Shown: positions 5,991 through 29,600 of the stretch, in pieces
Position numbering within the stretch: position 1 is the stretch's first letter
How the letters are laid out: each line of letters starts with the position of its first letter
Origin: Candidatus Pacearchaeota archaeon
Lineage (GTDB): Archaea > Nanobdellota > Nanobdellia > Pacearchaeales > GW2011-AR1
DNA: 64,000 nucleotides
Assembly: GCA_018304045.1 (NCBI GenBank)
Contig: JAGVWZ010000009.1
Span: forward strand, 13 to 64,012
Direction: 5' to 3'
Position numbers and translations under genes: made by a program
The notes under the pieces: model-generated
The model's input: only the letters and a program-made list of their open reading frames with translations
Told to the model about the DNA's origin: nothing
Databases searched by the model: none

Positions 5991-5991
5991 G

Positions 5992-9476: not shown

Positions 9477-9510
9477 TATAAACGCATTGAATTTATGTAT
9501 TTATTCTTTG

Positions 9511-10475: not shown

Positions 10476-10871
10476 ATGAGATATCCAATAGATGAATTGA
10501 TTGATAAAAGATCAATAATCCAATTGAAAATAGAAAGGATTGGAGATAATTCTGCTAAAGAAAGAGAAAATCTTAGGAGAGAATTTCAAGACTATACTGA
10601 TGCTATTTCAGAATATGTTTCTGAAGGAGTTTGTACTGCTGAACAAGCTGAAGAATGGCATGAAAGATTATACAAGGCAAATGGAACTACTTGGGATCTT
10701 GAAACAAAGATAAGAAGAGGTCAATTAGAGGAAATAAGTCTTGAAGAAGTTGGAAGAACAGCTATTGCAATTAGAGAATCAAATGGAGTCAGAGTTAGAA
10801 TCAAAGCAGAGATTGTTTCTGCAACAGGTATTGGATATAAAGATGTTAAAATAAATCATGCATCTGAATAA
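10476..10871 (+). CDS. hypothetical protein, DUF4254-like
   Basis: 131 aa. The WDLETKIRRG...EVGRTAIAIRESNGVRVRIKAEI pattern resembles DUF4254. Higher GC than neighbours. Its stop directly abuts the stop of the convergent radical SAM gene. Confidence 0.5.
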   Translation: MRYPIDELIDKRSIIQLKIERIGDNSAKERENLRREFQDYTDAISEYVSEGVCTAEQAEEWHERLYKANGTTWDLETKIRRGQLEEISLEEVGRTAIAIRESNGVRVRIKAEIVSATGIGYKDVKINHASE

Positions 10872-12245: not shown

Positions 12246-12313
12246 GTCAATCTTATTATATGGACTATATTGAAAGAAATGGATTTATAATCTTTATGGA
12301 TTTTAAGAATAAT

Positions 12314-12976
12314 TTATTTTTTCTTAGCTATCACCACAACTAATCTTGAAAATAAACTTGGATATATTTTTGCTAGTGGTTTGATTATTAGGTCTAAAAA
12401 ATAAAAAAAATCACTTGTTTTGCCAGTAGTTGATTGCCAGATTGGAATTACTTCTAAAATCTCAACTTTTTTTGAAAGTAAATTTATTATGTCACACACC
12501 CTTGGTTTATGTATGTGCCCTAATTTTTCTACTACTTCTAGATTAATTTCGATTATGTCTCTTTTTATTCCAAATAAATGAATCAATCTTTGCCAGAAAT
12601 TGTATTCATTTGGCATGGATATTATCAAAAATCCATTATCTTTTGTGACCCTTATAAGTTCGTCAATGACTTTATTAGGATATAACACATGTTCAAGTGT
12701 TTCAAGACAAACTGTGACATCAAAGGTCTTAGCTTTAACTGGAATTTTCCTTTTATTTAAATCACAGTTATAATCTCCTTGTCCATCCATATCAAGTGAC
12801 TTGCATTCTACATTTGGAGGAACTATTTTTTTTAACTTGTCATCCTGAGAACCTACATCAATAACCTTAATTTTCCCTTTAAATTTTGATACAAATTGTA
12901 GGACAACCCAGTATTGGGCAAAACTACGTTTTACTAATTTAAGAGTTTCAGTTTTAGAATTAGAATCATCTTTCAT
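12314..12976 (-). CDS. class I SAM-dependent methyltransferase
   Basis: 220 aa with VIDVGSQDD, CLETLEHV and GFLIISMPNE motifs. Its start overlaps the upstream gene's stop. Confidence 0.75.
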   Translation of the reverse strand: MKDDSNSKTETLKLVKRSFAQYWVVLQFVSKFKGKIKVIDVGSQDDKLKKIVPPNVECKSLDMDGQGDYNCDLNKRKIPVKAKTFDVTVCLETLEHVLYPNKVIDELIRVTKDNGFLIISMPNEYNFWQRLIHLFGIKRDIIEINLEVVEKLGHIHKPRVCDIINLLSKKVEILEVIPIWQSTTGKTSDFFYFLDLIIKPLAKIYPSLFSRLVVVIAKKK

Positions 12977-14558: not shown

Positions 14559-14841
14559 TCATTTGGGTTTAAAAAGATTATTATAAAATCACAGTAGATA
14601 ACTATTTCAGAGAATTGGGTTTTAAAAATTGGTATCCTATCAAGTTAATTCAAAAACTTACATATAAGTTTTTCTAAAAGTTAGTTTAATTAGTAGGCAA
14701 AGCAAGGTTGCATTTATAACAAAATATATATTCACATCCATCTTATTTGATTTAAAGAAGTCATTACTTGTAATGACCTTCCCATAGATATTTTGACATT
14801 ACTTATCATGCTCAAAAAAACAAATGTTCATCTAATGATAA

Positions 14842-15978
14842 TTAGAATAATGATTCTATTTTTTCTATAACTCTATCCCAAGCAAACTGCTGGACAGATA
14901 ATTTTGCTTGTTTTTTTAGTTCATTATTCTTAATACTGTCTTCCAGGGCAGAATCTATTTTTTCTGCAAGTGACCTTGGATTGTCAAATTCAAATAAGTA
15001 GCCATTATTATCATTTATCAAGTCTCTAATCGCTATGCTACTGCTTCCTATTACTATTTTTCCACGAGACATTGCTTCTATGAGCGCCTGAGGCATTCCT
15101 TCTACTCTTGAGGGAAGGACAAATACTCTTGCAGAATCAATCTTTTTTATTTTTTCTTTGATATCATATATTGGCTCTGAAATTAATATTCTGTCAGATA
15201 TGTGAAGTTCATTTATCATTGATTTAATTTTATTAAAATATTCTTCTTCTCTTGGACCTACAATTTCAATTTTTATTTTTTTATCTTTAATAAAAGGCAC
15301 TGCTGCAATAAGGGTCTCAACTTTTTTCTTAGGAGATATTCTGCTAAAAAAAAGAATTTTATTTTCTTCTCTTGTTTGTTGTTTTAAATTAAAAAATTCC
15401 ATAGGTATACCATTTGGAATATAAACTATATTCTCTTTTGGAGCTCCTGCTTTGATTAGATAAGGTATTTCCCAATGAGAAATTGCTAATATTTTATCAA
15501 ATTTTTTAAGGCTCATTGGACCTATAAATCTGTCATAAAATTTAACAATTATTGTTGCTAATTTAGAACGAGTAATATTTCCTTCTACAAATGGGGCATG
15601 GGTTACAAGAAATAATTTTACTTTTTTTCCCCTCTGCCTTAGCTTTTTACTTATTTTAATTGATAAATGCGTATGTGTATGGCGATAATTATGGGTGATT
15701 ATTATGTCTGGTGAATAATCAAGAGCTTCTTTTTCAAAATCCCAATTCATAAAACTTTCTCCGCCTAATTTTTTTGCTGGAAACCTTAGTATGGATATTC
15801 CATTTAATGATTCGTTTTCAGGAAGTATTCTATCTGAGCCTTTTTCAAAATAGGAAGAAAATACTCTTACTTCATAACCTCTTTTAACTAATTCTAAGGA
15901 TTCTTGTTTTACTCTTGCCCATACTCCACACCCACCTGATGAATAAGGGCATATTTCTAGTATTTTTAGTTTGGGCAT
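14842..15978 (-). CDS. GT4 family (GT-B) glycosyltransferase
   Basis: 378 aa. C-terminal SRVEGMPQALIEAMSRGKIVIGS is a GT4 E-x7-E type motif. Confidence 0.85.
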   Translation of the reverse strand: MPKLKILEICPYSSGGCGVWARVKQESLELVKRGYEVRVFSSYFEKGSDRILPENESLNGISILRFPAKKLGGESFMNWDFEKEALDYSPDIIITHNYRHTHTHLSIKISKKLRQRGKKVKLFLVTHAPFVEGNITRSKLATIIVKFYDRFIGPMSLKKFDKILAISHWEIPYLIKAGAPKENIVYIPNGIPMEFFNLKQQTREENKILFFSRISPKKKVETLIAAVPFIKDKKIKIEIVGPREEEYFNKIKSMINELHISDRILISEPIYDIKEKIKKIDSARVFVLPSRVEGMPQALIEAMSRGKIVIGSSSIAIRDLINDNNGYLFEFDNPRSLAEKIDSALEDSIKNNELKKQAKLSVQQFAWDRVIEKIESLF

Positions 15979-15979
15979 A

Positions 15980-16501
15980 TTATTTTATCACTTCTAATTT
16001 AAAATATAAATCCTGAACAGGAAGAAATTTCCTTAAAATTATTTCATGTATTTTTGGAAATAGATTTGAAATTCCCTGAAATATTTTAAAAACACTTCCA
16101 TAGATTATTTTTCTTTCAATTATGTTAAATCTTGCTTTTGTGTAAAAATTATAATCAAAATCTTTTGTAAAGTAGTCCATGGAATAGTAGGAGAAAAAAA
16201 TTCTATGGGTTGGATCTTTAAAAGCTCCTAGAGAAGCAAAATGAGGAACTCTTATTTCAATTATTGCATTATTTTTGCATATCCTATGTATTTCTTCCAT
16301 TACTTTTATAAGATTTTCAAGATGCTCTAATGTTGAAATTGAAATAATATATTCAAAAGAATTATCTTTAAATGGCCATGGAAATTTATCCAGATTATGA
16401 ACTATATCTACTCCTGGAAGTTTGACAGAATCAAGATTAATAAATCCTTGTCTTATGTCTGTTCCACATCCTAAGTGAAGTTTATTAGACTTATTTATCA
16501 T
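15980..16501 (-). CDS. SAM-dependent methyltransferase (type 11)
   Basis: 173 aa with LHLGCGTDIRQGFINLD and STLEHLENL motifs. Confidence 0.75.
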   Translation of the reverse strand: MINKSNKLHLGCGTDIRQGFINLDSVKLPGVDIVHNLDKFPWPFKDNSFEYIISISTLEHLENLIKVMEEIHRICKNNAIIEIRVPHFASLGAFKDPTHRIFFSYYSMDYFTKDFDYNFYTKARFNIIERKIIYGSVFKIFQGISNLFPKIHEIILRKFLPVQDLYFKLEVIK

Positions 16502-16594
16502 GGAATAATTGATGAAAAGAGGTTTAAAATATTATCGGAACTAGGTTATAATAATACATAAAAACTTTTAAAGGGTTTTAAACATTTCATAAAT

Positions 16595-17770
16595 ATGAGA
16601 AGACTATCAGATTCTGCACAAAGATTAGAAGGACAAAAAATGTTTCAAATACTTGCAAAAGCAAAGGAACTTGAAAGAGAGGGAAAAAGCATACTTCATT
16701 TTGAAATTGGAGACCCTGATTTTGGAACTCCTCAAAATATTGTAAATGCAGCTTATTCTGCACTTAGAAATGGGGAAACTCATTATACAACTTCTTCTGG
16801 AATTTTGGAGTTAAAGGTTGCTGCTGCTGATGTAACTGTAAGATCTAGAGGATTTAGGCCTGAATTAAATCAATTGCTTGTAACTCCTGGTGCAAATTCT
16901 CAAATATATTATGCTTTTTCATGTGCTGTTAATCCTGGAGAAGAAGTAATTATTCCAGACCCTAGTTTTGTTTCCTATAGATCAATATTAAATTTTCTTG
17001 GAATAAAGCCAGTTGGAATTCAATTAAAAGAAGAAAATGAATTTAGATTAAATCCTGATGATGTTAGAAAAGCTGTAACTGATAAAACTAGGATGATAGT
17101 TATTAATTCTCCACACAATCCAACTGGTTCTGTAATGACTGAAGATGAAATTTCAGAAATATATAGAATAGCTGAAGAAAGAGATATTTATTTACTTAGC
17201 GATGAAATCTATGCTAGAATGAAATATCATGATTCAAATTCTAAGTCTTGTTCTCCAAGCAAATTTGACCATTGTAGAGAAAGAACTATTGTTGTAAATG
17301 GGTTTAGCAAGTCCTATGCAATGACTGGTTGGAGACTTGGAATTGTTACAGCACCTGCTGATTTAACTGAAAAAATGGGGCTGTTACTTGAAACAACAAC
17401 TTCCTGTGTTTCTCCATTTGTACAAAAAGCAGGAGTAGAGGCATTGAGGGGAAGTCAAGAACCAATATTTGCAATGATTGAAGAATTTAGAAAAAGAAGA
17501 GATTTAGCTATTGTTGGATTAAATGAATTACCTGGTGTAAAATGTGTCAAACCTCAAGGTGCATTTTATGCTTTTCCAAATATAACTAAAACAGGGTTAG
17601 ATAGCTATGGTTTTGCAAATCTTATGTTAGAAGAAGCAGGTGTTGCTCTTTGTCCTGGACCTTTTTTTGGAAAACATGGTGAAGGATATGTTAGACTTTG
17701 CTATGCTAATTCTCTTGAAAATATACAAAGAGGAATTGAGCGAATGCAGGATGTTCTCAGAAGTAGATAG
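16595..17770 (+). CDS. class I/II PLP-dependent aminotransferase (AspAT-like)
   Basis: 391 aa with NSPHNPTG and FSKSYAMTGWRLG (Schiff-base Lys). Higher-GC gene. Confidence 0.85.
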   Translation: MRRLSDSAQRLEGQKMFQILAKAKELEREGKSILHFEIGDPDFGTPQNIVNAAYSALRNGETHYTTSSGILELKVAAADVTVRSRGFRPELNQLLVTPGANSQIYYAFSCAVNPGEEVIIPDPSFVSYRSILNFLGIKPVGIQLKEENEFRLNPDDVRKAVTDKTRMIVINSPHNPTGSVMTEDEISEIYRIAEERDIYLLSDEIYARMKYHDSNSKSCSPSKFDHCRERTIVVNGFSKSYAMTGWRLGIVTAPADLTEKMGLLLETTTSCVSPFVQKAGVEALRGSQEPIFAMIEEFRKRRDLAIVGLNELPGVKCVKPQGAFYAFPNITKTGLDSYGFANLMLEEAGVALCPGPFFGKHGEGYVRLCYANSLENIQRGIERMQDVLRSR

Positions 17771-17814
17771 TAAATCATAATTAAGTTTAAAAAGAAAATC
17801 AAGCTGGATTTTTT

Positions 17815-19584
17815 ATGAGAGTCTCAGATTATATTGCAGATTTTATAGCTAACCAAGGGGTGAAACATCCATTTTTAATAACTGGGGGGGCTGTTTTTGG
17901 ATTAGTTGATGGAGTTGCTCATCATCCAAAATTAGATTATATTTGCACTGAAAATGAACAAGGGGCTGCAATGGCTGCTGATGCATACTCAAGAATTAAT
18001 AATAATTTGGGTGTTGCTATTTCTACAAGTGGACCTGGTGCTACAAATCTGATTACAGGTGTTTGCTGTGCTTGGTATGATTCAATTCCAACTTTATTTT
18101 TAACAGGACAGGTTTCTTCTGGAAAATTAAGAGGAGATTCTCAAGTAAGGCAATTAGGATTTCAAGAAACAGACACTGTTGCATTGTTTAGTTCTATAAC
18201 TAAATATTCTAGTCAAGTTAGAGATCCAAAAGAAATAAGATATGAATTAGAAAAAGCAACTCATCTTGCTAGAAGTGGAAGACCAGGACCTGTTCATCTT
18301 GATATTCCAAATGATGTTCAAAGAACTGAAGTAAATCCTGCAGAATTAAGAGGATATAGTCCTGAAAGAAGAACTGTTGATTATGAAGGTTTAGGAAGAA
18401 AAGTTGCACAAGCACTAGACATGCTAGATGGGGCGGAAAGACCTTTGATTATTTTAGGTGCAGGAGTTAGACTTGCTAAGTCTGAAAAAAGAGCGCGAGC
18501 ACTTGTTGAAAGATTAAATATTCCTGTTGCATTAACCTGGGCTACTAAAGATTTTCTTCCCTATGACCATCCATTGGTTATTGAAGGTTTTGGTGTTTCA
18601 TCAGGAAGATATGGAAATTTTGCAGTACAAAATGCAGATATGATTTTAGCAATAGGAACTAGACTAGATACCCATGAATCAAGTAATTTAGCTTTATTTG
18701 CAAAAGGAGCTAGAAAAGTTATTGTAGATATTGATAAACATGAACTTGAAAAATTTCCAATAGGTGGAATGGAACCAGAAGTTGTAATAAATAATGATGT
18801 TGTTGATTTTTTAAATGCTGTAGAATATTTATCTAGAAATTCTTCTCCAAGAAATTTAAAAGAATGGCTTGGAAAAATAAATCATTGGAAAGAAAAATAT
18901 CCTATTTGTCCTGCAGAATGTTTTCAACAAAAAGGAACTGTGAATCCCTATGCATTTATGGATGTTTTATCAAGACAATCAAAAGAAGGAGATATTATAA
19001 TCACTGATGCTGGAGCTACTTTAACTTGGACAATGCAGGGATTTAGAATAAAAGAAGGCCAAAGATTGATAACTGCATTTAATAATTCTCCAATGGGATA
19101 TTCGCTTCCTGCTGCAATAGGTGCATATTTTGCTTCTGGAAAACCAATTGTCTGTACAATGGGAGATGGCTCAATGCAAATGAATGTGCAAGAACTTGCA
19201 ACTGTTAGACATCATAATATTCCTGCAAAACTGTTTATATTTGATAATAAGGGTTATGGCATGATTCGTCAAACATTGGACACTTATATGGGAAGTAGAT
19301 ATGCTGCTGTAGATAACCAAACAAAACTTCCTGCCCCTAATTTAAGAAAAGTAGCAGAGGCCTATGGAATTCCTACTTCTGAAATAAGAGATAATAGTGG
19401 ATTAGAAGATGGTATAAGACATGTTTTAGAATATGATGGACCTATTGTTTGCAATGTCAATATAGATCAGAATGAAAGAATTCAACCTAAATTAATTCCT
19501 GGAAAGTCTTTAGAAGAATTAGCTCCAAGATTATCTGATGAAGAATTAGCAAGAGAAATGATTATTCCCGGGGAGAAAAAATGA
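17815..19584 (+). CDS. ThDP-dependent enzyme, acetolactate-synthase/YerE-like
   Basis: 589 aa, three-domain ALS-like layout. ThDP motif GDGSMQMN...IFDNKGYGM. Confidence 0.85.
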   Translation: MRVSDYIADFIANQGVKHPFLITGGAVFGLVDGVAHHPKLDYICTENEQGAAMAADAYSRINNNLGVAISTSGPGATNLITGVCCAWYDSIPTLFLTGQVSSGKLRGDSQVRQLGFQETDTVALFSSITKYSSQVRDPKEIRYELEKATHLARSGRPGPVHLDIPNDVQRTEVNPAELRGYSPERRTVDYEGLGRKVAQALDMLDGAERPLIILGAGVRLAKSEKRARALVERLNIPVALTWATKDFLPYDHPLVIEGFGVSSGRYGNFAVQNADMILAIGTRLDTHESSNLALFAKGARKVIVDIDKHELEKFPIGGMEPEVVINNDVVDFLNAVEYLSRNSSPRNLKEWLGKINHWKEKYPICPAECFQQKGTVNPYAFMDVLSRQSKEGDIIITDAGATLTWTMQGFRIKEGQRLITAFNNSPMGYSLPAAIGAYFASGKPIVCTMGDGSMQMNVQELATVRHHNIPAKLFIFDNKGYGMIRQTLDTYMGSRYAAVDNQTKLPAPNLRKVAEAYGIPTSEIRDNSGLEDGIRHVLEYDGPIVCNVNIDQNERIQPKLIPGKSLEELAPRLSDEELAREMIIPGEKK

Positions 19585-21056
19585 CTAAAGCAATGTTTAT
19601 AACAAAAGGTGAAGAACATTATCCTCCAATGGGAATTATGCAACTTTCTGCTGCTGCAAAACAAAACGGGCATGAAACCTGTGTTGCCTTGACTTCAATA
19701 GAAGATGTATGGCAGAGAATAGATGAAGAAAGGCCTGATGTTGTTGCATATAGTGGTTCAACAGGAGAACATAGGGCTTATTTTGAAATCAATAGGGAAG
19801 TTAGAAAAAAACATCCTAGAATAAAATCAATAATGGGTGGACCTCATGCAACTTTTTTTCCTGAAAAAACATTGAGTAATGCAAGACTAAATGCTGTTTG
19901 CATTGGTGAAGGTGATTTAGCTTTTTCTAGATTTTTAGATAGGGTTGGAGAAGGAAGAGATTTTTCAGATGTAAATAATTTAATGACAAATCCCTTACAA
20001 AGACCTCAGTTAGATCCTCTTGTACAGGATTTAGATAGTTTACCTTTTCCAGACAGAGGACTTTTTTTTGATAGAGGAGATGCAGGACAAAACCCATTAA
20101 AACATTTTTTTATTTCAAGAGGATGTCCCTATAGCTGTACCTATTGTTTTAATGATAGTTTTAGAAAAATGTATCCTGGAGAAAGATATGTTAGAAGGAG
20201 AAGTGTTGATAGTGTTCTTGAAGAAATAGATGAAGTTGGAGCAAGATGGCCTATGAAATTTATAAAATTCTATGATGATATTTTTTCATTAAAAGTAGAT
20301 GATTGGCTAAAAGAGTTTGCAGATAAATATCCAAAGCAAGTTGGACTTCCTTTTTTTGCATTACTGAGGGCAAATTTAGTTACAGATGAAATGGCTGATT
20401 TATTAAAACAATCTGGATGCCATGCAATAAGTATGTCTATTGAAGCTGCAAATCCAAGAATTAGGGAAGAGATATTGCAAAGAAAAATGACAAATGAACA
20501 AATAATTGCTGCATACAGGGCATTTGGACAAAGAGGAATTGCAATACAAAGCAATAATATTCTTGGACTTCCTACATCTACAATTGAAGATGATATTGCT
20601 ACTCTTGATTTAAATATTGAATGTGGAAAATATGCAAGGGTTATGGCTGAATTTGGAACAGCACATCCTTATCCTGGAACAGCACTGGGAGATTATTGCC
20701 AAAAACATGGATTGTATGATTCTGGAAGTGGATTTTTTGATATGCATCAATCTTATCAAACAGAATCCCCATTGAATTGCTTTACTCCAATGGAAAAAAG
20801 AATGCAGAGAAACTTGACTATGCTTGGACCTGTTGCTGTCAGGTTTCCAAGATTAAGAAATTTAATTGTAGATCATTTAATAAAATTGCCTACAAATCCT
20901 GTATTTTTTACTGCTTTTGATTTAAATAAGGCAACAGGTTATATGCAACATATTTATCAAATGGAGAGGAGCTGGGGAGATTATGCAAAAGTATTATACA
21001 GAAGTTTTAGAAAAAATTGGTTTAAAAGAATGGGGGAGAAGGTAGATGCCAAATAA
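19581..21056 (+). CDS. cobalamin-binding-domain (class B) radical SAM protein
   Basis: 491 aa. MGGPHATFFP and CIGEGD B12-domain motifs plus ISRGCPYSCTYCFN. ATGA start/stop overlap with the ThDP gene. Confidence 0.85.
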   Translation: MTKAMFITKGEEHYPPMGIMQLSAAAKQNGHETCVALTSIEDVWQRIDEERPDVVAYSGSTGEHRAYFEINREVRKKHPRIKSIMGGPHATFFPEKTLSNARLNAVCIGEGDLAFSRFLDRVGEGRDFSDVNNLMTNPLQRPQLDPLVQDLDSLPFPDRGLFFDRGDAGQNPLKHFFISRGCPYSCTYCFNDSFRKMYPGERYVRRRSVDSVLEEIDEVGARWPMKFIKFYDDIFSLKVDDWLKEFADKYPKQVGLPFFALLRANLVTDEMADLLKQSGCHAISMSIEAANPRIREEILQRKMTNEQIIAAYRAFGQRGIAIQSNNILGLPTSTIEDDIATLDLNIECGKYARVMAEFGTAHPYPGTALGDYCQKHGLYDSGSGFFDMHQSYQTESPLNCFTPMEKRMQRNLTMLGPVAVRFPRLRNLIVDHLIKLPTNPVFFTAFDLNKATGYMQHIYQMERSWGDYAKVLYRSFRKNWFKRMGEKVDAK

Positions 21057-22011
21057 AGATGTTCAAGAATATTTTCCACAAATAACTTGTCCTCCAAGAA
21101 GAATACCCCATAATGGAAATAATACTTTATTTGAAGTAAATACTGAAACTGGGAGATATATTTTTAAACAATATTTTGGACATTATGAGTCCTGGCAAAG
21201 AGGAATTTCTGAATTTAATGCACTTTCTTTTTTATGGGAGAATGGTTTTAGAAATATTCCTCAACCCATAAAATTTTATGAACCTGATGTAGGAATATAT
21301 AAATTTATTGAAGGCAAACCAATTGCTGGAAAAGATGTCAATGCTGAAGATATAAAAAATGCAGCTGAATTTTTAGCTAGACTCCATGATCTTGGAGAAA
21401 AAGATAAAGAAAGATTTGGCCCTGCAAGTTCTGCATGTTTATGTTTAGGAGATTATTTAGGGGTTGTTGATAGAAGATATGCAAGAGTTTCTGGATTTGT
21501 TAATCAAGATACTCCTGAAAAAACAAGAAGATTTGTTTTAGAAGATGTTTCTAGAAAAATAGAAGATGTTAAAGCCAAATTTGGAAGAGATTCAAGGAGT
21601 TTGGATTTAGAAATCCAACTTACTTTAGGGCAACAGGTTTTAACTCCTGCGGATTTTGGTTTTCATAATGTTTTAAAAAATGGAAATCAATATTCATATA
21701 TTGATTTTGAATATTTTGGAAGAGATGATCCTGCTAGACAATTATTAGATTTTGTTCACCATGGTAGTTCTAAGGAAATAGGCAGAGAATTGAAAGAATT
21801 ATTTTTAAAAGAATATTTAGAAAGAATTAGTCCTGCACAAAGAGTTAGCAGAGATAGACTGGAATTACTTGATCCATTAATTCAGCTTACTTGGGTGTTA
21901 ATATGTTTAAATGCTGTTAATAGTGATTATAATGTTCATTTGGAAAATAGAAAAGAACTTGCTGAAAAAAGAATAGCAGAAGCAGAGGAAAGATTAGGGG
22001 CTATAAAATGA
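21046..22011 (+). CDS. APH/choline-kinase-family small-molecule kinase
   Basis: 321 aa with DFGFHNVL (catalytic loop) and IDFEYFGRDDP motifs. Overlaps both neighbours. Confidence 0.75.
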   Translation: MPNKDVQEYFPQITCPPRRIPHNGNNTLFEVNTETGRYIFKQYFGHYESWQRGISEFNALSFLWENGFRNIPQPIKFYEPDVGIYKFIEGKPIAGKDVNAEDIKNAAEFLARLHDLGEKDKERFGPASSACLCLGDYLGVVDRRYARVSGFVNQDTPEKTRRFVLEDVSRKIEDVKAKFGRDSRSLDLEIQLTLGQQVLTPADFGFHNVLKNGNQYSYIDFEYFGRDDPARQLLDFVHHGSSKEIGRELKELFLKEYLERISPAQRVSRDRLELLDPLIQLTWVLICLNAVNSDYNVHLENRKELAEKRIAEAEERLGAIK

Positions 22012-22964
22012 TAAAATATTCTTCTGGTTTATTGGATTTTCATACTCATTCTACTTTCTCTGATGGTTCTTTAACACCTAGTCAACTTGTTTCAGAAGCA
22101 AAAAAAACAGGAGTTAGTGCCATGGCATTGACAGACCATAACACTATTTCTGGACTTGAAGAATTTCAAGCTGCTTGTAGAAAAGAAGATGTTTTTCCAA
22201 TTCCTCTAGGAGTTGAAATTTATGCAGAACTTCCTTCAGAGATTGTTACTCCTGAAGATAATAGAGCCCCTGATTTAGTAATACTTGGAAAAAATGTGAA
22301 TCCTAAACCACTTTATGACTATGAACAAAATCTATTAAAATATTTTAGAGAAGTTTTTCTTTTTGAGAGTGTAAGAAAATTAGAAGTTCTTGGTTTTAAA
22401 TTTCCTAGGGAAAAAGTAAGGGAACAATATGAAATTCTTCAAAGAGAACTTCAATCTCCTCCAAAAATACTCCATGATTTCATTGGATTACCTGGCAATA
22501 GGGAGGTTTTTTTAAGATATCTTCAAGAACATGAAATAAATGATGAGATTGCTGGAAGAGAAATAAGTTTTATGAATAAATATCTTTTTGCAATTGGAAG
22601 ACCTGCATATGTTGATAGAATTTCTGGTTTTAATGTTTCAGATGCAATTGTTCTTGCGCATAATATGAATGGAAAATTATTTGTTGCTCATCCTGGTGGA
22701 AGATTTTTTGGTGCATTAAGACCTGAGATTATTGATTACTATGTTCAAGCAGGTATAGATGGTTTAGAGGTTAGAAATTATTTTAATAGTAATGAACAAA
22801 ATTCAAATTTTGATGAACTTGCTAGGAAACATGGGTTAATAAGAAGTGGAGGATCTGATTATCATGGAGCAAATGGGATTTCAAAAATAGGAATTTATGA
22901 TGTTCCGGATAATCAAGTTCCTAAAGAAGTTTTGGAAGAGCTTGTTGATAATTTACCTAATTGA
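22008..22964 (+). CDS. PHP-domain metal-dependent phosphoesterase
   Basis: 318 aa with LDFHTHSTFSDG, ALTDHNT and GGSDYHG motifs. Confidence 0.8.
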   Translation: MIKYSSGLLDFHTHSTFSDGSLTPSQLVSEAKKTGVSAMALTDHNTISGLEEFQAACRKEDVFPIPLGVEIYAELPSEIVTPEDNRAPDLVILGKNVNPKPLYDYEQNLLKYFREVFLFESVRKLEVLGFKFPREKVREQYEILQRELQSPPKILHDFIGLPGNREVFLRYLQEHEINDEIAGREISFMNKYLFAIGRPAYVDRISGFNVSDAIVLAHNMNGKLFVAHPGGRFFGALRPEIIDYYVQAGIDGLEVRNYFNSNEQNSNFDELARKHGLIRSGGSDYHGANGISKIGIYDVPDNQVPKEVLEELVDNLPN

Positions 22965-23019
22965 ACATATAAATATTTTTAAATGAATAAATAGTTTATT
23001 TTTTAAGAGAAAACAAGAA

Positions 23020-23886
23020 ATGGGTGAAGAAAAAATAAAATTGCCTGGAGAAGTGAATTATGTTGAAGCATATCTTACTTTAAGATGTAATTTTGCATGT
23101 CCTTATTGCATTAATGATAGATCTAAAATTGTAAGAGTCATGAATGAACTTCCTGCTGATGAATGGGCAAATGCATTGAATAGAATTGATTTTGGTAATG
23201 TTTCTTTAACCTTGGGTGGTGGAGAACCAACTATGCATAAAGAATTCTATGGATTACTTGAAATACTTAGGCCTGAAATAAGTGTTGACCTTTTGACTAA
23301 TCTTTCATTTGATATTGGAGAATTTGTTGAAAGAGTTAAACCTAATAGATTTGGCAGAGGAACAAATCCTGCATATAGATCTATAAGGGTAAGTTATCAC
23401 CCTAAAAAAATGGTTGCTGAAGAACTTGTAGAAAGAGTTCAGGGGCTGCAGGATAGAGGATTTTCAATAGGAATTTTTGGAATAAGTCATCCTGAAAATA
23501 GCGAGCCTAACATGCAAATGTCAGAGGTGGCTAGAAGGGCAGGAGTTTATTTTTTTATTAAAGATTTTTTAGGAGATTATGATGGACAAAGATTTGGTTA
23601 TTTTAAATATCCTGCTGGATTAGATGATGTAAAAAAACAAGCAGCATGCAGAACAAGAGATTTATTGATTGCTCCTGATGGTCAGGTGTATAAATGTCAT
23701 AGAGATCTTTATTCAAGAGAATCTCCAGTTGGAAATATTACTGATAAAAATTTTAGGCCTGAGTTTAAATTCAGGGATTGTTCTAACTATGGATTATGCA
23801 ATCCTTGTGATGTTAAATTAAAAACAAATAGATTCTTACAATCAGGCAACTGTCAAGTGGAAATAGAACCAAAAGCAAATGCTTAA
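23020..23886 (+). CDS. radical SAM protein with C-terminal Cys-rich (SPASM/twitch-like) region
   Basis: 288 aa. LTLRCNFACPYCIN motif; C-terminal Cys cluster CRTRD...KCHRD...CSNYGLCNPC. Confidence 0.75.
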   Translation: MGEEKIKLPGEVNYVEAYLTLRCNFACPYCINDRSKIVRVMNELPADEWANALNRIDFGNVSLTLGGGEPTMHKEFYGLLEILRPEISVDLLTNLSFDIGEFVERVKPNRFGRGTNPAYRSIRVSYHPKKMVAEELVERVQGLQDRGFSIGIFGISHPENSEPNMQMSEVARRAGVYFFIKDFLGDYDGQRFGYFKYPAGLDDVKKQAACRTRDLLIAPDGQVYKCHRDLYSRESPVGNITDKNFRPEFKFRDCSNYGLCNPCDVKLKTNRFLQSGNCQVEIEPKANA

Positions 23887-23910
23887 AATCACTAAACTTT
23901 TTAGGATTAT

Positions 23911-25074
23911 ATGAAAAAACAGATTGTTTTTATTGAATACACCCCATCTGTTCCAACTATTAAAATAGCAAGAACTCTTAAACTTACTGGAAATTATGAA
24001 ACAATATTAGTATCATTTAGAAAAAAAGAGGAGGAATTTCTCGGAAAAGCATTTGATAGAGTTATTTTTATTAATCTTACTCATAAATTAAATAAGAAAA
24101 ATATTATTAATTTTTTTAAAAATATATTTAGTAAAGGAACTAGAAATGCATTGAAAGAATTAAGGGCATTGGACCCATATATTTTTCAAATAACAGGACC
24201 TGATCTTTTCACATTAATTTCAACATCATTAATAAATAAAAAAAGTGCAAGAATTTATTTTGCCTATGATATATGGAAATTTTTTGAAAAAAAATGGTCT
24301 TTTAAAAATATTGGAATTAAAGAATTATTTCAAAAAGTTATTGAGAAAAGATTTTTCAATATTTGTGATGGAATTCTTCACAAAGGTCCTGAAGATGAAT
24401 TCAAATATTTAGATTATAAAATTTCTGTTCCATCTTTATGTTTTTATCCAGGATGTTTGGATGAATGGATAATTCCTGTTAAAAAAAATAAGAAAATAAA
24501 AAATATAAAACTTGTTTATGCTGGTGGGCCATTGGCTGCTTGGAATGGAAGAGTTGCTTTTATAGATGTTACTAAAGAAATAACAAAACAAGGAATATAT
24601 TTTTCTACTTCAAGTAAGCCAATAATTGAAAAAGATTCTGAGATTTTCTTTGATGAAGAAAAAAGAAATCCTTATTTTAAATTTGGAGAAAGGGGCAGGT
24701 CTGAGTATTTTAGTAAAAATATTTCAAAGTATGATTATGGGATAATCCCTGATTTTTTTGATACCTCTATAATAAATCCCCTTTGGCCAAAAACTTCAAT
24801 GGCAAACAAACTATTCACTTACATTGAAGCAGGCATTCCAATAATCATAAATGAACAAAGTGAAGTTATGGCAGATGTTGTTAAGAATAATAGCATTGGC
24901 ATAGTTATAAAATATGAAGAATTAAAAAATCTTAAAAAAATTATACTTAAAAAAGATTATAATAAATTATTAAAAAATATGAAGAAAACACAGGAAAGGT
25001 ACAGGCTTAGTAAAAATATACATTTGATTGAAGAATTCTATGAAAAATGCTATAATTTAAAGCATATAAAATAA
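23911..25074 (+). CDS. putative GT-B glycosyltransferase
   Basis: 387 aa, extremely AT-rich. The C-terminal half (LVYAGGP..., KLFTYIEAGIPIIINE) resembles the Glycos_transf_1 fold. The call is weak. Confidence 0.45.
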   Translation: MKKQIVFIEYTPSVPTIKIARTLKLTGNYETILVSFRKKEEEFLGKAFDRVIFINLTHKLNKKNIINFFKNIFSKGTRNALKELRALDPYIFQITGPDLFTLISTSLINKKSARIYFAYDIWKFFEKKWSFKNIGIKELFQKVIEKRFFNICDGILHKGPEDEFKYLDYKISVPSLCFYPGCLDEWIIPVKKNKKIKNIKLVYAGGPLAAWNGRVAFIDVTKEITKQGIYFSTSSKPIIEKDSEIFFDEEKRNPYFKFGERGRSEYFSKNISKYDYGIIPDFFDTSIINPLWPKTSMANKLFTYIEAGIPIIINEQSEVMADVVKNNSIGIVIKYEELKNLKKIILKKDYNKLLKNMKKTQERYRLSKNIHLIEEFYEKCYNLKHIK

Positions 25075-25113
25075 AATAAATATCTTTAAATATAAAATAA
25101 AAAGCATGACATA

Positions 25114-26178
25114 ATGGGAAAAGAGAGTATTCCAGATATGGATTTATGCAAATTAGCATATCATCCAGAAAGAGTTGCTGAATGGAAACAAACAGGCGAT
25201 TGTTTTCCAGTTTATGTGGAAGTTGGACCTACTAATAGATGTAATCATAATTGTATGTTTTGTGCATTGGATTGGGTTGAAAGAGGAGAAATTAGAATTG
25301 ATAAAAAAGTTTTATGTAAAAACTTAGAAGACATGGCTAGAAGTGGCGTGGAATCTGTGATGTTTGCTGGAGAAGGTGAACCACTTGCACATCCAAATGC
25401 ACAAAAATTTGTTCAAGAAGCAAGAAAAAATAATATGGAAGTTTATCTAACAACAAACGGAGTTTTATTAACTAGAAAACGTGTTGAAGAAATTATTCCA
25501 TATTTATCTTGGATAAGATTTAGTGTTGATGCTGGAACAAGAGAATCCTATGGAAAAATTCATAGAACAAGGGAGGAAGACTTTGATAGGGTTTGGAGGA
25601 ATATAGGGGATTGTGTTGATGTTGGAAGAACAAGTACTAGGGGATTCAATGTAAGTGTACAGACTCTTCTTTTATCTGAAAATATTGGGGAAATTGAAAG
25701 ATTAGCAGAATTATGCAAGCAAAATGGTGTGAGCAATCTTCAAGTTAAGCCCTATTCTCACCATCCAGATAGTAAAAATGATTTATCTGTAGATTTGGAA
25801 TCTGCACAGCGGTTGGGTGAAAGATTAAAAAGATTTGAAGATGGAACTTTTAGGGTTTTTTATAGGGGAAAATCTGTTGAAAGACTTACTTCTGAGAAAG
25901 GATATAGCGAATGTTTGGGACTTCCTTTTTTTGCACTTATTGATGCTAGTGGAAATGTTTTACCATGTAATTTGTTTTATGAAAAACCTGAATTTTATTA
26001 TGGAAATATTAATCACCAAATGTTTTCAGAATTATGGAAAGGTGATAAAAGGAAGCAAGTTCTTGAAAGATTAAGACAACAGGGAATAGGAGGTTGTAGG
26101 GATGGATGTAGGCTAGATCCAAGTAATAGATACCTAAGCATAGTAAAAAATCCAGGGGCTTATTACAGGGGATTATGA
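25114..26178 (+). CDS. radical SAM protein (SPASM-like C-terminus)
   Basis: 354 aa. GPTNRCNHNCMFCAL motif; C-terminal CLGLP...PCNLF...GGCRDGC. Its 3' end overlaps the convergent gene by 6 nt. Confidence 0.8.
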   Translation: MGKESIPDMDLCKLAYHPERVAEWKQTGDCFPVYVEVGPTNRCNHNCMFCALDWVERGEIRIDKKVLCKNLEDMARSGVESVMFAGEGEPLAHPNAQKFVQEARKNNMEVYLTTNGVLLTRKRVEEIIPYLSWIRFSVDAGTRESYGKIHRTREEDFDRVWRNIGDCVDVGRTSTRGFNVSVQTLLLSENIGEIERLAELCKQNGVSNLQVKPYSHHPDSKNDLSVDLESAQRLGERLKRFEDGTFRVFYRGKSVERLTSEKGYSECLGLPFFALIDASGNVLPCNLFYEKPEFYYGNINHQMFSELWKGDKRKQVLERLRQQGIGGCRDGCRLDPSNRYLSIVKNPGAYYRGL

Positions 26179-27783: not shown

Positions 27784-27838
27784 GTTTTTAAGATTAATGA
27801 AGATATTTATAAAGATTTATATAAAATTTGTTTATTGT

Positions 27839-29464: not shown

Positions 29465-29600
29465 AGTATATTCAAGCCTTATTTTAAAAAATTATTGGCT
29501 TAAAAATATATGTATACTCTTGAATAGGAAGAACTCTCAAAAGAAAAAGTATATTATTCAGAATAGAATTGTTTATAAATAAATTTTTTTATAGGGTATT

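What the first reader, a model, noticed from the sequence alone, without database searches (positions are those of the whole stretch)
16595..23886. Translationally coupled six-gene operon: aminotransferase, ALS-like ThDP enzyme, B12-rSAM, APH-type kinase, PHP phosphoesterase, rSAM
All six genes are on the + strand. Start/stop overlaps occur at 19581/19584 (ATGA), 21046/21056 and 22008/22011, which implies a stoichiometric pathway. I cannot match this enzyme combination to any described pathway: C-C ligation (ThDP), transamination, radical methylation or rearrangement, then phosphorylation and dephosphorylation. It resembles phosphonate or aminoglycoside logic but lacks their defining enzymes. 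The whole block is GC-richer than the flanking AT-rich GT genes (spot counts 19/60 and 24/60 at 17821-17940, versus 5/60 at 24061-24120).
Basis: partly seen in the sequence, partly recalled or inferred. Interest (0 to 1): 0.7.

Follow-up and report, generated by a model that had tools for sequence, protein, structure and literature searches.

The report
Branched-sugar gene cassette in DPANN archaeon
The six flagged genes are part of a conserved eight-gene cassette in the protein-glycosylation island of a tiny uncultivated archaeon; it most likely builds an unusual carbon-branched sugar by a new radical-enzyme-rich variant of a bacterial pathway, and its exact product is unknown.

Summary
The ORFs, strands, start/stop overlaps and family calls are correct. 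The unit is eight genes (16595-26178), not six. The GC excess and the overlaps are ordinary for this genome.

The host is a Candidatus Pacearchaeota MAG. The cassette lies in a ~40-kb N-glycosylation island with AglB, glycosyltransferases, a flippase, an NDP-heptose pathway and a 4,6-dehydratase.

- **ThDP enzyme:** it is not IlvB. It groups with the YerE-like carboligase JanthE (100/100 bootstraps) and away from 107 IlvB-type sequences.
- **Aminotransferase:** an AspAT-type 2-oxo-acid enzyme with all catalytic residues conserved. It is fused to the ThDP enzyme elsewhere and occupies the slot held by 2-oxo-acid makers in bacterial clusters.
- **Twitch-type radical SAM (25114-26178):** fused to the ThDP enzyme in five proteins.
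- **Kinase and PHP phosphatase:** a conserved couple; distant kinase relatives are fused to a HAD phosphatase.
- **Conservation:** the cassette recurs at 42-69% identity in three other contigs.

Best reading: a new variant of YerE/ErwE-type acyl-branched sugar biosynthesis. The product and the kinase/phosphatase role are unresolved.

The parts
16502..16594 (.). Divergent intergenic region upstream of the cassette. It holds A/T-rich TATA-like elements (CTTTTAAAGG about 20-29 nt before the ATG).
   Evidence: Sequence read. The promoter assignment is an inference; the sigma-70 scan is uninformative for archaea.
16595..17770 (+). Class I (AspAT/ArAT-type) PLP aminotransferase. Proposed supplier of the 2-oxo-acid donor.
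   Evidence: PF00155 213 bits. Best solved structure is Pyrococcus ArAT 1DJU/1GD9 at 309 bits. K239, R367, N175, D203 and Y206 are conserved in all 12 aligned homologues from the loci, ten of them from JanthE-clade loci. Fused to the ThDP enzyme in P0088 (62% identity).
17815..19584 (+). YerE/JanthE-clade ThDP-dependent carboligase (three-domain, GDG motif). Proposed acyl-anion transfer to a keto sugar.
   Evidence: JanthE 483 bits vs AHAS 373 bits or less. Invariant E48 and G450-D451-G452. NJ clade with JanthE 100/100.
19581..21056 (+). Cobalamin-binding (class B) radical SAM enzyme, translationally coupled to the ThDP gene. Proposed C-methylation or rearrangement.
   Evidence: PF02310 + PF04055. 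CPYSCTYC at residues 182-189. 68-69% identity in L002, L170 and L171. Adjacent to the ThDP gene also in L005. No equivalog reached.
21046..22011 (+). APH/choline-kinase-fold small-molecule kinase; substrate unknown.
   Evidence: PF01636. AF2 model pLDDT 94. Foldseek neighbours are APH(9), ethanolamine/choline kinases, LicA and homoserine kinase II at TM 0.6-0.7. Invariant D203/H207, nearly invariant N208, and invariant D220-FEY. Specific subfamily of about 35 clusters.
22008..22964 (+). PHP-family (TrpH / nucleoside-bisphosphate-phosphatase-like) phosphoesterase; partner of the kinase.
   Evidence: PF02811. Best solved structures 3E0F and 2YB1. Metal-ligand motifs read. Specific subfamily of about 45 clusters followed by a sharp score drop. 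The overlap with the kinase gene is conserved in L170 and L171.
23020..23886 (+). 288-aa radical SAM with a Cys-rich SPASM-like C-terminus; role unknown.
   Evidence: PF04055. CNFACPYC and six C-terminal Cys. 54-64% identity in L002, L170 and L171, where it sits directly after the rSAM/SPASM gene. Relatives are fused to GT2 and to a cytidylyltransferase-like domain.
23911..25074 (+). Gtf3-like GT-B glycosyltransferase candidate (weak). Proposed transfer of the finished sugar.
   Evidence: No Pfam hit of its own. Weak NCBIfam galactofuranosyltransferase hits. Orthologues at 47-61% identity in L171 and L170, the L171 one hitting PF26337 Gtf3_C.
25114..26178 (+). Twitch/SPASM radical SAM with one auxiliary cluster; physically fused to the ThDP enzyme in other organisms. 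Proposed to make or process the keto-sugar acceptor.
   Evidence: PF04055 + PF13186. Fused to ThDP in P0067, P0082, P0085, P0098 and P0105 at 45-51% identity over the full length. Only C267, C285, C328 and C332 are invariant in the C-terminal part. BtrN C-terminal and BlsE sequence hits. Fold neighbours are SuiB, DesII, anSME, BlsE, MoaA and viperin (model pLDDT 71).
2090..42511 (.). Surrounding N-glycosylation island that supplies precursors and uses the product. It contains AglB/STT3, a GT4 phosphotransferase, GTs, MTs, four further B12-rSAMs, a DegT aminotransferase, HddC-HddA, a split transketolase, a 4,6-dehydratase-like SDR, a flippase, a GmhB fusion, an HldE-like gene and GmhA.

Best explanation
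The region is an eight-gene sugar-tailoring cassette (16595-26178) inside the N-glycosylation island of a Pacearchaeota (DPANN) archaeon. It most likely makes a C-acyl-branched, tertiary-alcohol sugar for the cell-surface glycan. The route would be a new variant of the bacterial YerE/ErwE pathway.

Proposed steps:
1. The AspAT-type aminotransferase converts an L-amino acid into its 2-oxo acid. This is inferred, with strong comparative support.
2. The JanthE/YerE-clade ThDP enzyme decarboxylates that 2-oxo acid and adds the acyl anion to a keto group of a nucleotide sugar. This is a family-level inference.
3. The keto acceptor comes from the island's 4,6-dehydratase acting on an NDP-heptose or NDP-hexose, or from the BtrN-like twitch radical SAM enzyme, which is fused to the ThDP enzyme in other organisms. 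This is inferred.
4. The translationally coupled B12-radical SAM and the 288-aa radical SAM then modify the branch or ring, for example by C-methylation. This is weakly inferred.
5. The kinase and PHP phosphatase act as an obligate couple that adds and later removes a phosphate on an intermediate. The coupling is shown; the substrate is unknown.
6. The Gtf3-like GT installs the sugar on the lipid-linked glycan, which AglB then transfers to protein. This is inferred.
For: **ThDP enzyme**
- The family profile scores JanthE (8RPH) at 483 bits and 5AHK at 415 bits, against 373 bits or less for any AHAS.
- It shares a 62-sequence NJ clade with JanthE in 100/100 bootstraps, separate from the IlvB-type sequences.
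- None of the 111 loci whose ThDP gene is below 35.5% identical (IlvB-type) carries APH, PHP or the 288-aa rSAM; a class-I aminotransferase (3 loci, 24-49% identical), a B12-rSAM (1) and an rSAM/SPASM (1) turn up only sporadically. One of the three, L128, is a truncated AT-ThDP pair.

**Published precedent**
- YerE-like enzymes add C2-C8 acyl groups from 2-oxo acids to CDP-4-keto-3,6-dideoxyglucose.
- The donor is made by a co-located enzyme.
- Transamination is noted as an alternative route to such donors (PMC9306805, PMC12247030).

**Aminotransferase**
- It is about 47% identical to Pyrococcus ArAT.
- The PLP lysine and the alpha-carboxylate arginine are conserved in all 12 aligned homologues.
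- It is fused to the ThDP enzyme in P0088.
- It lies next to the ThDP gene across ThDP identities of 35-66%.
- The same slot holds an HMGL-type aldolase plus a YerF-like SDR in Selenomonas, and a PanB-like enzyme in a Bacteriovoracales genome.

**Radical SAM enzymes**
- The rSAM/SPASM is fused to the ThDP enzyme in five proteins.
- It has a single auxiliary cluster. Its neighbours BtrN, DesII and BlsE act on aminocyclitol, nucleotide-sugar and nucleoside-sugar substrates.
- Relatives of the 288-aa rSAM are fused to GT2 and to a nucleotidyltransferase.

**Kinase and phosphatase**
- Distant kinase homologues are fused to a HAD phosphatase, or overlap a free-standing one. In the cassette, PHP replaces HAD.

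**Cassette conservation**
- AT-ThDP-B12rSAM-APH-PHP-rSPASM-rSAM-GT is found in L171, and the same from ThDP onward in L170.
- L002 has it without PHP.
- Identities are 42-69%.

**Context**
- The island has AglB, GTs, a flippase, a complete heptose-nucleotide pathway and a 4,6-dehydratase.
Against: - No enzyme activity or glycan structure is known for any member.
- JanthE's physiological substrate is itself unknown (PMC12188165).
- 5AHK, which I recall (unverified) to be PpYerE, falls outside the JanthE clade.
- The cassette lacks the YerF-type SDR that accompanies the ThDP gene in L001, L004, L006, L169 and Selenomonas.
- The rSAM/SPASM model is only moderately confident (pLDDT 71), and its fold neighbours include peptide-modifying enzymes.
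- The B12-rSAM has no close characterised relative.
- The kinase fold gives no substrate.
- The kinase family also occurs with split transketolases and without the YerE-like enzyme (L167, L172). The kinase/phosphatase couple may therefore belong to sugar-phosphate chemistry rather than nucleotide-sugar chemistry.
- The aminotransferase could in principle act after ligation on an intermediate that bears a 2-oxo acid.
Confidence: 0.6

Rival explanations
1. Sugar-phosphate-level variant. The ThDP enzyme and the radical SAMs act on a ketose or aldose phosphate rather than a nucleotide sugar. The kinase then works as an anomeric kinase and the PHP enzyme as the distal phosphatase, giving a sugar 1-phosphate for nucleotidylylation. 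This is the logic of the heptose pathway (HddA/HldE + GmhB).
For: - The kinase and phosphatase form a conserved couple, seen as a HAD fusion, as a free-standing overlapping HAD, or with PHP.
- The couple lies next to a split transketolase and an HldE-like gene in L172, and next to a split E1/TK in L167.
- The window island has GmhA, GmhB, HldE-like and HddC-HddA genes and a split TK.
- From memory, APH-fold anomeric sugar kinases exist (NahK, AmgK).
- PHP's nearest relatives hydrolyse a sugar-phosphate monoester on ribose.
Against: - All characterised YerE-like enzymes use nucleotide sugars (PMC9306805).
- NDP-sugar SDR, epimerase or RmlD-like genes flank the ThDP gene in L004, L005, L006 and L169.
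- Relatives of the 288-aa rSAM are fused to GT2 and to a nucleotidyltransferase.
- The cassette has no nucleotidyltransferase.
Confidence: 0.15
2. Phospho-amino-alcohol or small head-group decoration. The aminotransferase and ThDP enzyme build a small non-sugar molecule such as an amino alcohol or hydroxy ketone. The LicA/choline-kinase-like kinase phosphorylates it, and it is attached to the glycan as a phosphodiester, as in phosphocholine decoration.
For: - The kinase's fold neighbours include ethanolamine and choline kinases and LicA.
- Several homologues hit PF01633 Choline_kinase.
- The island has nucleotidyltransferases.
Against: - The aminotransferase keeps its alpha-carboxylate-binding arginine, so it would not aminate a simple ketone.
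- The ThDP clade is tied to sugar-nucleotide genes in every context inspected.
- A dedicated phosphatase coupled to the kinase is not part of LicA-type logic.
- No LicD-type transferase was found.
Confidence: 0.1
3. Mosaic of independent tailoring modules. The genes do not form one linear pathway. AT-ThDP-rSPASM is one module, B12-rSAM a second and the kinase/phosphatase a third, each acting on a different sugar of the same glycan. They are co-transcribed only because the island is compact.
For: - Partial cassettes exist: AT-ThDP-rSPASM without APH (L004, L006); the kinase without ThDP/AT (L167); B12-rSAM-PHP without ThDP (L168); L002 without PHP.
- Overlaps are a genome-wide habit.
Against: - The same eight genes stay contiguous at 42-69% identity in L170 and L171, and in L002 minus PHP.
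- The ThDP/B12-rSAM and APH/PHP overlaps or adjacencies are conserved.
- The cassette carries its own GT.
Confidence: 0.1
4. Ordinary metabolism or cofactor salvage. Either this is branched-chain amino-acid synthesis (IlvB/IlvE), or the kinase, phosphatase and aminotransferase serve thiamine or cobalamin-loop salvage for the ThDP and B12 enzymes.
For: - The best NCBIfam hit of the ThDP protein is acolac_lg.
- JGI names kinase homologues 'thiamine kinase-like'.
- From memory, CobD is a class I/II aminotransferase-fold enzyme.
Against: - The ThDP protein is below all AHAS cut-offs and phylogenetically separate from them.
- No Pfam hit to an IlvN-, IlvC- or IlvD-type family among the window ORFs scanned.
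- The aminotransferase is AspAT-type and is fused to the ThDP enzyme.
- The window has no CobS/CobU/CbiB or ThiL-type genes.
Confidence: 0.03

Closest known systems
YerE/ErwE-type acyl-branched sugar biosynthesis (yersiniose A, erwiniose, caryophyllose; Chen et al., Steitz et al. 2022, PMC9306805)
   Same: - The key C-C step would use a three-domain ThDP carboligase of the decarboxylase superfamily.
- A dedicated, co-located enzyme supplies the 2-oxo-acid donor.
- The genes lie in a cell-surface glycan cluster with keto-sugar-forming enzymes and a GT.
- A clade member in Selenomonas has the full erwiniose-like set: aldolase, SDR, an E1-sized DegT and a dehydratase.
   Different: - The donor maker is a class I aminotransferase, sometimes fused, instead of an aldolase.
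- The cassette has no YerF-type ketoreductase.
- It has three radical SAM enzymes, one B12-dependent and one fused to the ThDP enzyme in relatives.
- It has a kinase/PHP phosphatase couple.
- The host is a DPANN archaeon and the target is an AglB-dependent N-glycan rather than LPS.
- The likely scaffold is a heptose or 6-deoxyheptose nucleotide rather than a CDP-3,6-dideoxyhexose (not tested).
JanthE (Janthinobacterium sp. HH01; PDB 8RPH/8RPI/8RPJ)
   Same: - It is the closest solved structure (357 bits for the single sequence, 483 bits for the family profile).
- It falls in the same bootstrap-supported clade.
- It couples 2-oxo acids of varied length to ketones (PMC12188165).
   Different: - JanthE has a CDG motif; the window family has the canonical GDG.
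- JanthE's physiological role is unknown, so it gives chemistry but no pathway.
Acetohydroxyacid synthase large subunit (IlvB/IlvG/IlvI)
   Same: Same three-domain architecture and ThDP motif; 30-35% identity.
   Different: - The window protein is below all equivalog cut-offs.
- It is phylogenetically separate.
- The window has no IlvN, IlvC or IlvD.
- The genomic partners are entirely different.
BtrN / DesII-type radical SAM enzymes acting on aminocyclitol or sugar-nucleotide substrates
   Same: - The rSAM/SPASM has the CX3CX2C motif plus a single four-Cys auxiliary cluster.
- It has a sequence hit to the BtrN C-terminus and a DesII fold hit.
- These enzymes oxidise a secondary alcohol to a ketone on a sugar-like substrate (mechanism from established literature).
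   Different: - Identity is only about 15-20%.
- Peptide-modifying SPASM enzymes score equally well.
- Fusion to a ThDP enzyme is not known for BtrN or DesII.
Heptose-nucleotide pathway kinase/phosphatase pair (HddA or HldE + GmhB)
   Same: A kinase and a phosphatase act in one sugar-activation pathway. The couple co-occurs with heptose genes in the window and in L172.
   Different: The folds are unrelated (APH-fold kinase, PHP or a distinct HAD). The canonical HddA/HldE/GmhB genes are also present in the island, so the couple is not a simple replacement.

Membership tests
YerE-like ThDP carboligases (decarboxylase superfamily) | Three-domain ThDP architecture (PF02776/PF00205/PF02775) with the catalytic Glu and the GDG...N ThDP motif | tested here: met
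   E48, G450-D451-G452 and N478 are invariant in 12 family members. Alignment to JanthE.
YerE-like ThDP carboligases (decarboxylase superfamily) | Closer to characterised ketone-accepting enzymes than to AHAS | tested here: met
   Met for JanthE: 483 bits vs 373 bits or less, and a clade with 100/100 bootstraps. Not met for 5AHK, which sits in a separate small clade.
YerE-like ThDP carboligases (decarboxylase superfamily) | Encoded in a glycan cluster with nucleotide-sugar and keto-sugar-forming genes | tested here: met
   for the window. for relatives.
YerE-like ThDP carboligases (decarboxylase superfamily) | Adjacent YerF-type SDR that reduces the branch ketone | tested here: not met
   The cassette at 16595-26178 has no adh_short gene. 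One is present next to the ThDP gene in L001, L004, L006, L169 and L020.
YerE-like ThDP carboligases (decarboxylase superfamily) | Couples a 2-oxo-acid-derived acyl anion to a keto-sugar nucleotide | not testable with these tools
   Requires an enzyme assay.
Acetohydroxyacid synthase (IlvB-type) | Reaches the curated equivalog score, and IlvN/IlvC/IlvD are nearby | tested here: not met
   TIGR00118 408 bits against a cut-off of 538; all PRK AHAS models are far below cut-off. No Ilv partner among the scanned window ORFs. Phylogenetically separate.
Class I (AspAT-type) aminotransferase | PLP lysine, Asn/Asp/Tyr cofactor ligands and the alpha-carboxylate-binding Arg | tested here: met
   K239, N175, D203, Y206 and R367 align to Pyrococcus ArAT and are conserved in 12 aligned homologues.
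IlvE (class IV) branched-chain aminotransferase | Fold-type IV domain (PF01063) | tested here: not met
   Only PF00155-type hits.
Cobalamin-dependent (class B) radical SAM | N-terminal B12-binding domain plus the CX3CX2C radical SAM core | tested here: met
   PF02310 65.7 bits and PF04055 79.8 bits. CPYSCTYC. Methyltransfer or any other chemistry was not tested, and no equivalog was reached.
SPASM/twitch radical SAM | CX3CX2C plus a C-terminal Cys-ligated auxiliary cluster or clusters | tested here: met
   For 25114-26178: PF13186, CNHNCMFC, and four invariant C-terminal Cys. For 23020-23886: a weak TIGR04085 hit and six C-terminal Cys.
APH / choline-kinase (ELK) small-molecule kinases | Bilobal kinase fold with a catalytic D..H.N loop and a metal-binding D(F/x)E motif | tested here: met
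   PF01636. AF2 + Foldseek. Invariant D203, H207, D220 and E222; N208 nearly invariant. Substrate class not determined.
3',5'-nucleoside bisphosphate phosphatase / TrpH (PHP) | PHP metal-binding residues, and the curated equivalog score | tested here: inconclusive
   The metal ligands are present by inspection and PF02811 is met. NF041577 scores only 100 bits against a cut-off of 400. It is a distinct subfamily.
Phosphonate biosynthesis | PEP mutase plus phosphonopyruvate decarboxylase | tested here: not met
   No PF13714 hit among the scanned window ORFs. A PEP mutase is present in the unrelated locus L001 only.

The most novel reading that the evidence does not exclude
The cassette encodes a previously undescribed, radical-SAM-enabled route to branched sugars.
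- A BtrN-like twitch radical SAM enzyme makes the keto acceptor anaerobically on a nucleotide sugar and hands it directly to a physically associated (elsewhere fused) YerE-like carboligase.
- The acyl donor is drawn from the amino-acid pool by a dedicated, elsewhere fused, transaminase.
- A B12-radical SAM and a second radical SAM then elaborate the branch.
- A kinase/phosphatase couple provides a transient phosphate handle.

The product would be a new class of higher-carbon, C-alkylated branched sugar on the N-glycans of DPANN archaea and on glycans of CPR-like bacteria.
Probability: 0.3. Interest if true: 0.75.

Novelty: new variant of a known kind. Interest (0 to 1): 0.6.

Why it matters
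- **Surface chemistry of DPANN and CPR organisms.** These organisms live attached to hosts, and their surface glycans are chemically unknown. This cassette, and its wider family with ThDP-rSAM and AT-ThDP fusions, predicts that they display C-branched sugars built with cofactor-expensive chemistry (ThDP, PLP, cobalamin, three Fe-S radical enzymes). That is striking for genome-reduced symbionts.
- **Enzymology.** The cassette extends the YerE 'unifying scheme' in three ways:
  - a transaminase-based donor supply;
  - a candidate radical-SAM/ThDP two-enzyme machine;
  - a kinase-phosphatase couple whose phosphatase has been swapped between HAD and PHP.
- **Biocatalysis.** YerE-like enzymes are sought for making chiral tertiary alcohols. 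More than 100 sequence clusters at 49-100% identity are listed, out of thousands of hits, and natural fusions define the partner enzymes. This is a ready source of new donor and acceptor specificities.

Tried and rejected
**Searches with limited yield**
- The genome contigs and metagenome-contig scans with the ThDP alignment were dominated by the generic motif TSGPGATN. They returned mostly IlvB-type loci. These served as negative controls but gave few close relatives.
- The sigma-70 promoter and terminator scan was at background level and is irrelevant for an archaeon.
- I could not verify in the library that PDB 5AHK is PpYerE. I could not identify PDB 7WZV.
- The Krug et al. in-silico survey of YerE-like enzymes is not in the library.
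- Literature searches for the cassette in archaeal N-glycosylation or DPANN found nothing.

**Analyses that did not resolve function**
- The fold search for the kinase gave only the generic ELK/APH fold.
- The rSAM/SPASM model has moderate confidence, and its neighbours mix sugar-acting and peptide-acting enzymes.

**Ideas considered and rejected**
- BCAA synthesis.
- Phosphonate or aminoglycoside logic: the defining enzymes are absent.
- A RiPP cluster: there is no room for a precursor gene in the 24-55-nt gaps, and the context is purely glycan.
- HGT island by GC.
- Cobalamin nucleotide-loop genes (CobD/BluE/CobC analogues) and thiamine kinase salvage: the aminotransferase is AspAT-type and fused to the ThDP enzyme, and no other cofactor genes are present.
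- 5'-deoxyadenosine or MTR salvage: MTR kinase is only a distant fold hit, and there is no isomerase or aldolase.

Full report
**1. Observation**

The six ORFs lie exactly where stated, all on the + strand.
- The three start/stop overlaps are real: ATGA at 19581-19584, 11 nt at 21046-21056, and ATGA at 22008-22011.
- Each overlapped start codon is preceded by a G-rich Shine-Dalgarno-like motif.

Pfam and NCBIfam confirm the family calls:
- class I/II aminotransferase;
- three-domain ThDP enzyme;
- B12-binding radical SAM;
- APH-fold kinase;
- PHP phosphoesterase;
- radical SAM.

None of these reaches a curated equivalog cut-off.

- Overlaps occur at 3 of 7 cassette junctions and at 8 of 37 other same-strand junctions in the window (Fisher p = 0.34).
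- The block's GC is 32.7%, within one SD of the window's genes (29.9 ± 3.0%). Other soluble-enzyme genes in the island reach 32-36%.

The unit is also longer than stated. Two further + strand genes follow after gaps of 24 and 39 nt:
- 23911-25074, GT-like;
- 25114-26178, radical SAM/SPASM.

The next gene (26173-27783) is convergent.

**2. Source and surroundings**

The exact proteins are deposited as MBS3078627-34 from a Candidatus Pacearchaeota archaeon MAG, a DPANN lineage. They recur on 8-13 public contigs.

The cassette sits in the middle of a ~40-kb glycosylation island. The island contains:
- AglB/STT3 oligosaccharyltransferase (2090-4888);
- a GT4 initiating phosphotransferase, GtrA, a PMT_2-type GT-C, and several GT2/GT4 glycosyltransferases and methyltransferases;
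- four further B12-radical SAMs;
- a DegT sugar aminotransferase;
- an HddC-HddA fusion;
- a split transketolase;
- a GDP-mannose/dTDP-glucose 4,6-dehydratase-like SDR;
- a flippase;
- a GmhB fusion, an HldE-like gene and GmhA.

SecDF, tRNAs, a 5S rRNA and ribosomal proteins follow. The island is therefore chromosomal.

**3. The ThDP enzyme is YerE/JanthE-like, not IlvB**

- The best solved structure is JanthE (8RPH). It scores 357 bits with the single sequence and 483 bits with a profile of 12 family members.
- 5AHK scores 415 bits and every AHAS 373 bits or less.
- JanthE is a YerE-like carboligase that couples 2-oxo acids to ketones to give tertiary alcohols. Its physiological substrate is unknown (PMC12188165).
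- I built an NJ tree of 169 ThDP sequences: the window protein, JanthE, 5AHK and all ThDP genes from the fetched loci.
  - The window protein and JanthE share a clade of 62 sequences, recovered in 100/100 bootstraps (96-taxon subset for the bootstrap).
  - This clade is separate from the IlvB-type sequences.
  - 5AHK, which I recall but could not verify to be PpYerE, falls in a separate small clade.
- E48 and the GDG motif are invariant in the family.
- The family is large. More than 100 sequence clusters at 49-100% identity are listed, from DPANN archaea, Thermoproteota, Dehalococcoidales, Elusimicrobia and Omnitrophica.

**4. Conservation of the cassette**

I ran tblastn with the eight window proteins against 171 fetched loci.

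| ThDP identity to window | Partner genes found |
|---|---|
| < 35.5% (IlvB-type, n = 111) | No APH, PHP or 288-aa rSAM; sporadic AT (3), B12-rSAM (1), rSAM/SPASM (1) |
| 35-47% | AT adjacent to ThDP in L009, L088, L092, L099, L128 |
| 60-63% | Whole cassette |

- L171 has AT(66%)-ThDP(60)-B12rSAM(68)-APH(42)-PHP(47)-rSPASM(50)-rSAM288(54)-GT(47).
- L170 has the same genes from ThDP onward; the contig ends just upstream.
- L002/L003 has the same genes minus PHP.

The gene order differs only in the last three genes.

Looser variants also exist.
- SDR-ThDP with AT and rSAM/SPASM but no kinase: L004, L006, L169.
- ThDP with B12-rSAM only: L005.
- ThDP with an SDR in a heptose/phosphonate cluster: L001.

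**5. Gene fusions**

- P0088 is AT + ThDP. Its AT part is 62% identical to the window AT over the full length.
- P0067, P0082, P0085, P0098 and P0105 are ThDP + radical SAM/SPASM. The rSAM part is 45-51% identical to window 25114-26178 over the full length.
- AT, ThDP enzyme and the twitch rSAM are therefore functionally linked.

**6. Role of the aminotransferase**

- It is about 47% identical to Pyrococcus horikoshii ArAT/AspAT.
- It keeps the PLP lysine (K239), N175, D203, Y206 and the alpha-carboxylate-binding R367.
- All five are conserved in 12 aligned homologues. Its substrates are therefore alpha-amino and 2-oxo acids, not a sugar ketone.
- In the published scheme, the 2-oxo-acid donor of ErwE is made by a co-located aldolase (ErwI). 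Transamination of amino acids is named as an alternative route to such donors (PMC9306805).
- Clade members elsewhere fit this picture.
  - In Selenomonas artemidis, the ThDP gene is preceded by a YerF-like SDR and an HMGL-type aldolase. A 4,6-dehydratase-like gene and an E1-sized DegT protein are also present.
  - In a Bacteriovoracales genome, the gene directly upstream is PanB-like, another maker of a functionalised 2-oxo acid.
- I therefore assign the AT as the donor supplier. This is an inference supported by three independent lines of evidence.

**7. Radical SAM enzymes**

*25114-26178*
- It has the CX3CX2C motif and only four invariant C-terminal cysteines, implying one auxiliary cluster, as in twitch enzymes.
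- Sequence hits are to the BtrN C-terminus and to BlsE.
- Fold neighbours are SuiB, DesII, anSME, BlsE, MoaA and viperin, from a model of only moderate confidence (pLDDT 71).
- BtrN, DesII and anSME oxidise C-OH to C=O (established literature).
- Together with the fusion to the ThDP enzyme, this suggests, but does not show, that it makes the keto acceptor.

*288-aa rSAM*
- It lies directly after the rSAM/SPASM gene in L170, L171, L002 and L167, and directly before it in L094.
- It defines a modest family of 70 representatives at E ≤ 1e-30.
- Family members are fused to a GT2 glycosyltransferase and to a cytidylyltransferase-like domain. This ties it to nucleotide-sugar chemistry.

*B12-rSAM*
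- It is the most conserved cassette protein (68-69% identity).
- It overlaps or abuts the ThDP gene in the window, L170 and L005.
- Its nearest characterised relatives are distant (HpnJ, ApyD, CysS, TokK, AprD4). C-methylation is only a family-level guess.

**8. Kinase and phosphatase**

- The kinase has no sequence-level relative among solved structures.
- Its model (pLDDT 94) is a generic ELK/APH fold. Neighbours are APH(9), choline and ethanolamine kinases, LicA and homoserine kinase II.
- The kinase and PHP proteins each form tight subfamilies of about 35 and about 45 clusters.
- They occur in the same kind of glycan islands, sometimes without the ThDP enzyme (L167, L168).
- Five distant kinase homologues carry an N-terminal HAD phosphatase with complete motifs: DFDNT, SHKT, K, FIDDL.
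- In a 3.3-Mb bacterial genome, a free-standing copy of that HAD domain overlaps the kinase gene. It lies next to a split transketolase, an RmlD-like gene and an HldE-like gene.
- No such HAD domain exists in the window or the syntenic cassettes, where PHP overlaps the kinase instead.
- Kinase + phosphatase is thus a conserved couple, with non-orthologous displacement of the phosphatase.
- Its substrate is unresolved. The two concrete options are:
  - a bisphosphate-to-1-phosphate logic, as in heptose activation;
  - a transient phosphate handle on a nucleotide-sugar intermediate or on the branch.

**9. Synthesis**

- The best-supported explanation (confidence about 0.6) is a new variant of YerE/ErwE-type acyl-branched sugar biosynthesis that serves the archaeon's N-glycan.
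- Shown: gene content, conservation, fusions, clade membership and conserved catalytic residues.
- Inferred: every chemical step, the identity of donor and acceptor, and the order of the tailoring reactions.
- The rivals are listed separately:
  - a sugar-phosphate-level version;
  - a small phospho-head-group decoration;
  - a mosaic of independent modules;
  - ordinary metabolism or cofactor salvage.

**10. Novelty**

- The published YerE-like enzymes and the predicted set of more than 200 are described for bacterial cell-envelope glycans such as LPS (PMC12247030).
- I found no description of any of the following (limited to the searchable library):
  - the aminotransferase-supplied version;
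  - the radical-SAM-associated version;
  - the kinase/phosphatase-containing version;
  - the ThDP-rSAM and AT-ThDP fusions;
  - an archaeal occurrence.
- I rate it as a new variant of a known kind, with interest 0.6.

Noticed in passing
window 10872-12245(-), 12966-14558(-), 19581-21056(+), 26173-27783(-), 34795-36264(-): One glycosylation island of a genome-reduced DPANN archaeon holds five B12-binding radical SAM genes plus three other radical SAMs. This implies heavy cobalamin and SAM dependence for surface-glycan tailoring. Whether the organism can obtain or remodel cobalamin was not checked.
   Followed up: partly
window 38996-40561 (-): A GmhB-type heptose bisphosphate phosphatase (TIGR00213 153.5 bits, above its cut-off) is fused to a GSU2086-family domain of unknown function (NF052581 311 bits, cut-off 250).
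   Followed up: no
window 30868-32892 (-) and 40551-41960 (-): Two parallel heptose-activation systems lie in one island. One is an HddC-HddA (nucleotidyltransferase + GHMP kinase, with a weak CBS hit) fusion; the other is an HldE-like PfkB-kinase/adenylyltransferase. GmhA lies at 41957-42511. This suggests that both GDP-alpha-heptose and ADP-beta-heptose are made.
   Followed up: no
window 32941-33873 / 33849-34724 (-); also L167, L172, L006, L001, L169: Split transketolase or E1-type ThDP enzymes recur in these islands. They lie next to homologues of the cassette kinase and rSAM pair even where the YerE-like enzyme is absent. They may be a second sugar-branching system (as proposed for miharamycin), or simply supply sedoheptulose 7-phosphate.
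   Followed up: partly
P0180, P0188, P0195, P0216, P0218; L172 9309-11047: A HAD phosphatase is fused to the APH-fold kinase, or encoded by a free-standing gene that overlaps it. In the DPANN cassette a PHP phosphatase takes its place. This is a non-orthologous displacement within a conserved kinase-phosphatase couple.
   Followed up: yes
L020 (Selenomonas artemidis DSM 19719) 5017-18884: A cultured bacterium carries an erwiniose-like cluster: dehydratase, E1-sized DegT, HMGL aldolase, SDR and a JanthE-clade ThDP enzyme. The cluster also contains a radical SAM, a DHQS-like enzyme and a KARI homologue. It could serve as an experimentally tractable model for the clade.
   Followed up: partly
L008 (Bacteriovoracales) 8889-11770: A PanB-like ketopantoate hydroxymethyltransferase lies directly upstream of a JanthE-clade ThDP enzyme in a NeuB/CMP-sugar cluster. 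This suggests a ketopantoate-type (hydroxy-dimethyl) acyl donor.
   Followed up: no
JGI 3300072015 contig and L006 21376-21782: A second, longer ThDP protein (848-850 aa, all three ThDP domains plus an extra region) sits in the same islands as the YerE-like enzyme. It was not characterised.
   Followed up: no
window 47143-47257 (+): An isolated 5S rRNA gene lies next to tRNA-Leu(CAA), with tRNA-Arg and tRNA-Gly about 1.2 kb away. No 16S or 23S rRNA is present in the window.
   Followed up: no
window 60710-63721 (-), 51086-51996 (+), 53241-53825 (+): A 1003-aa ORF and several smaller ORFs around MacB/FtsX-type permease genes have no Pfam hit.
   Followed up: no
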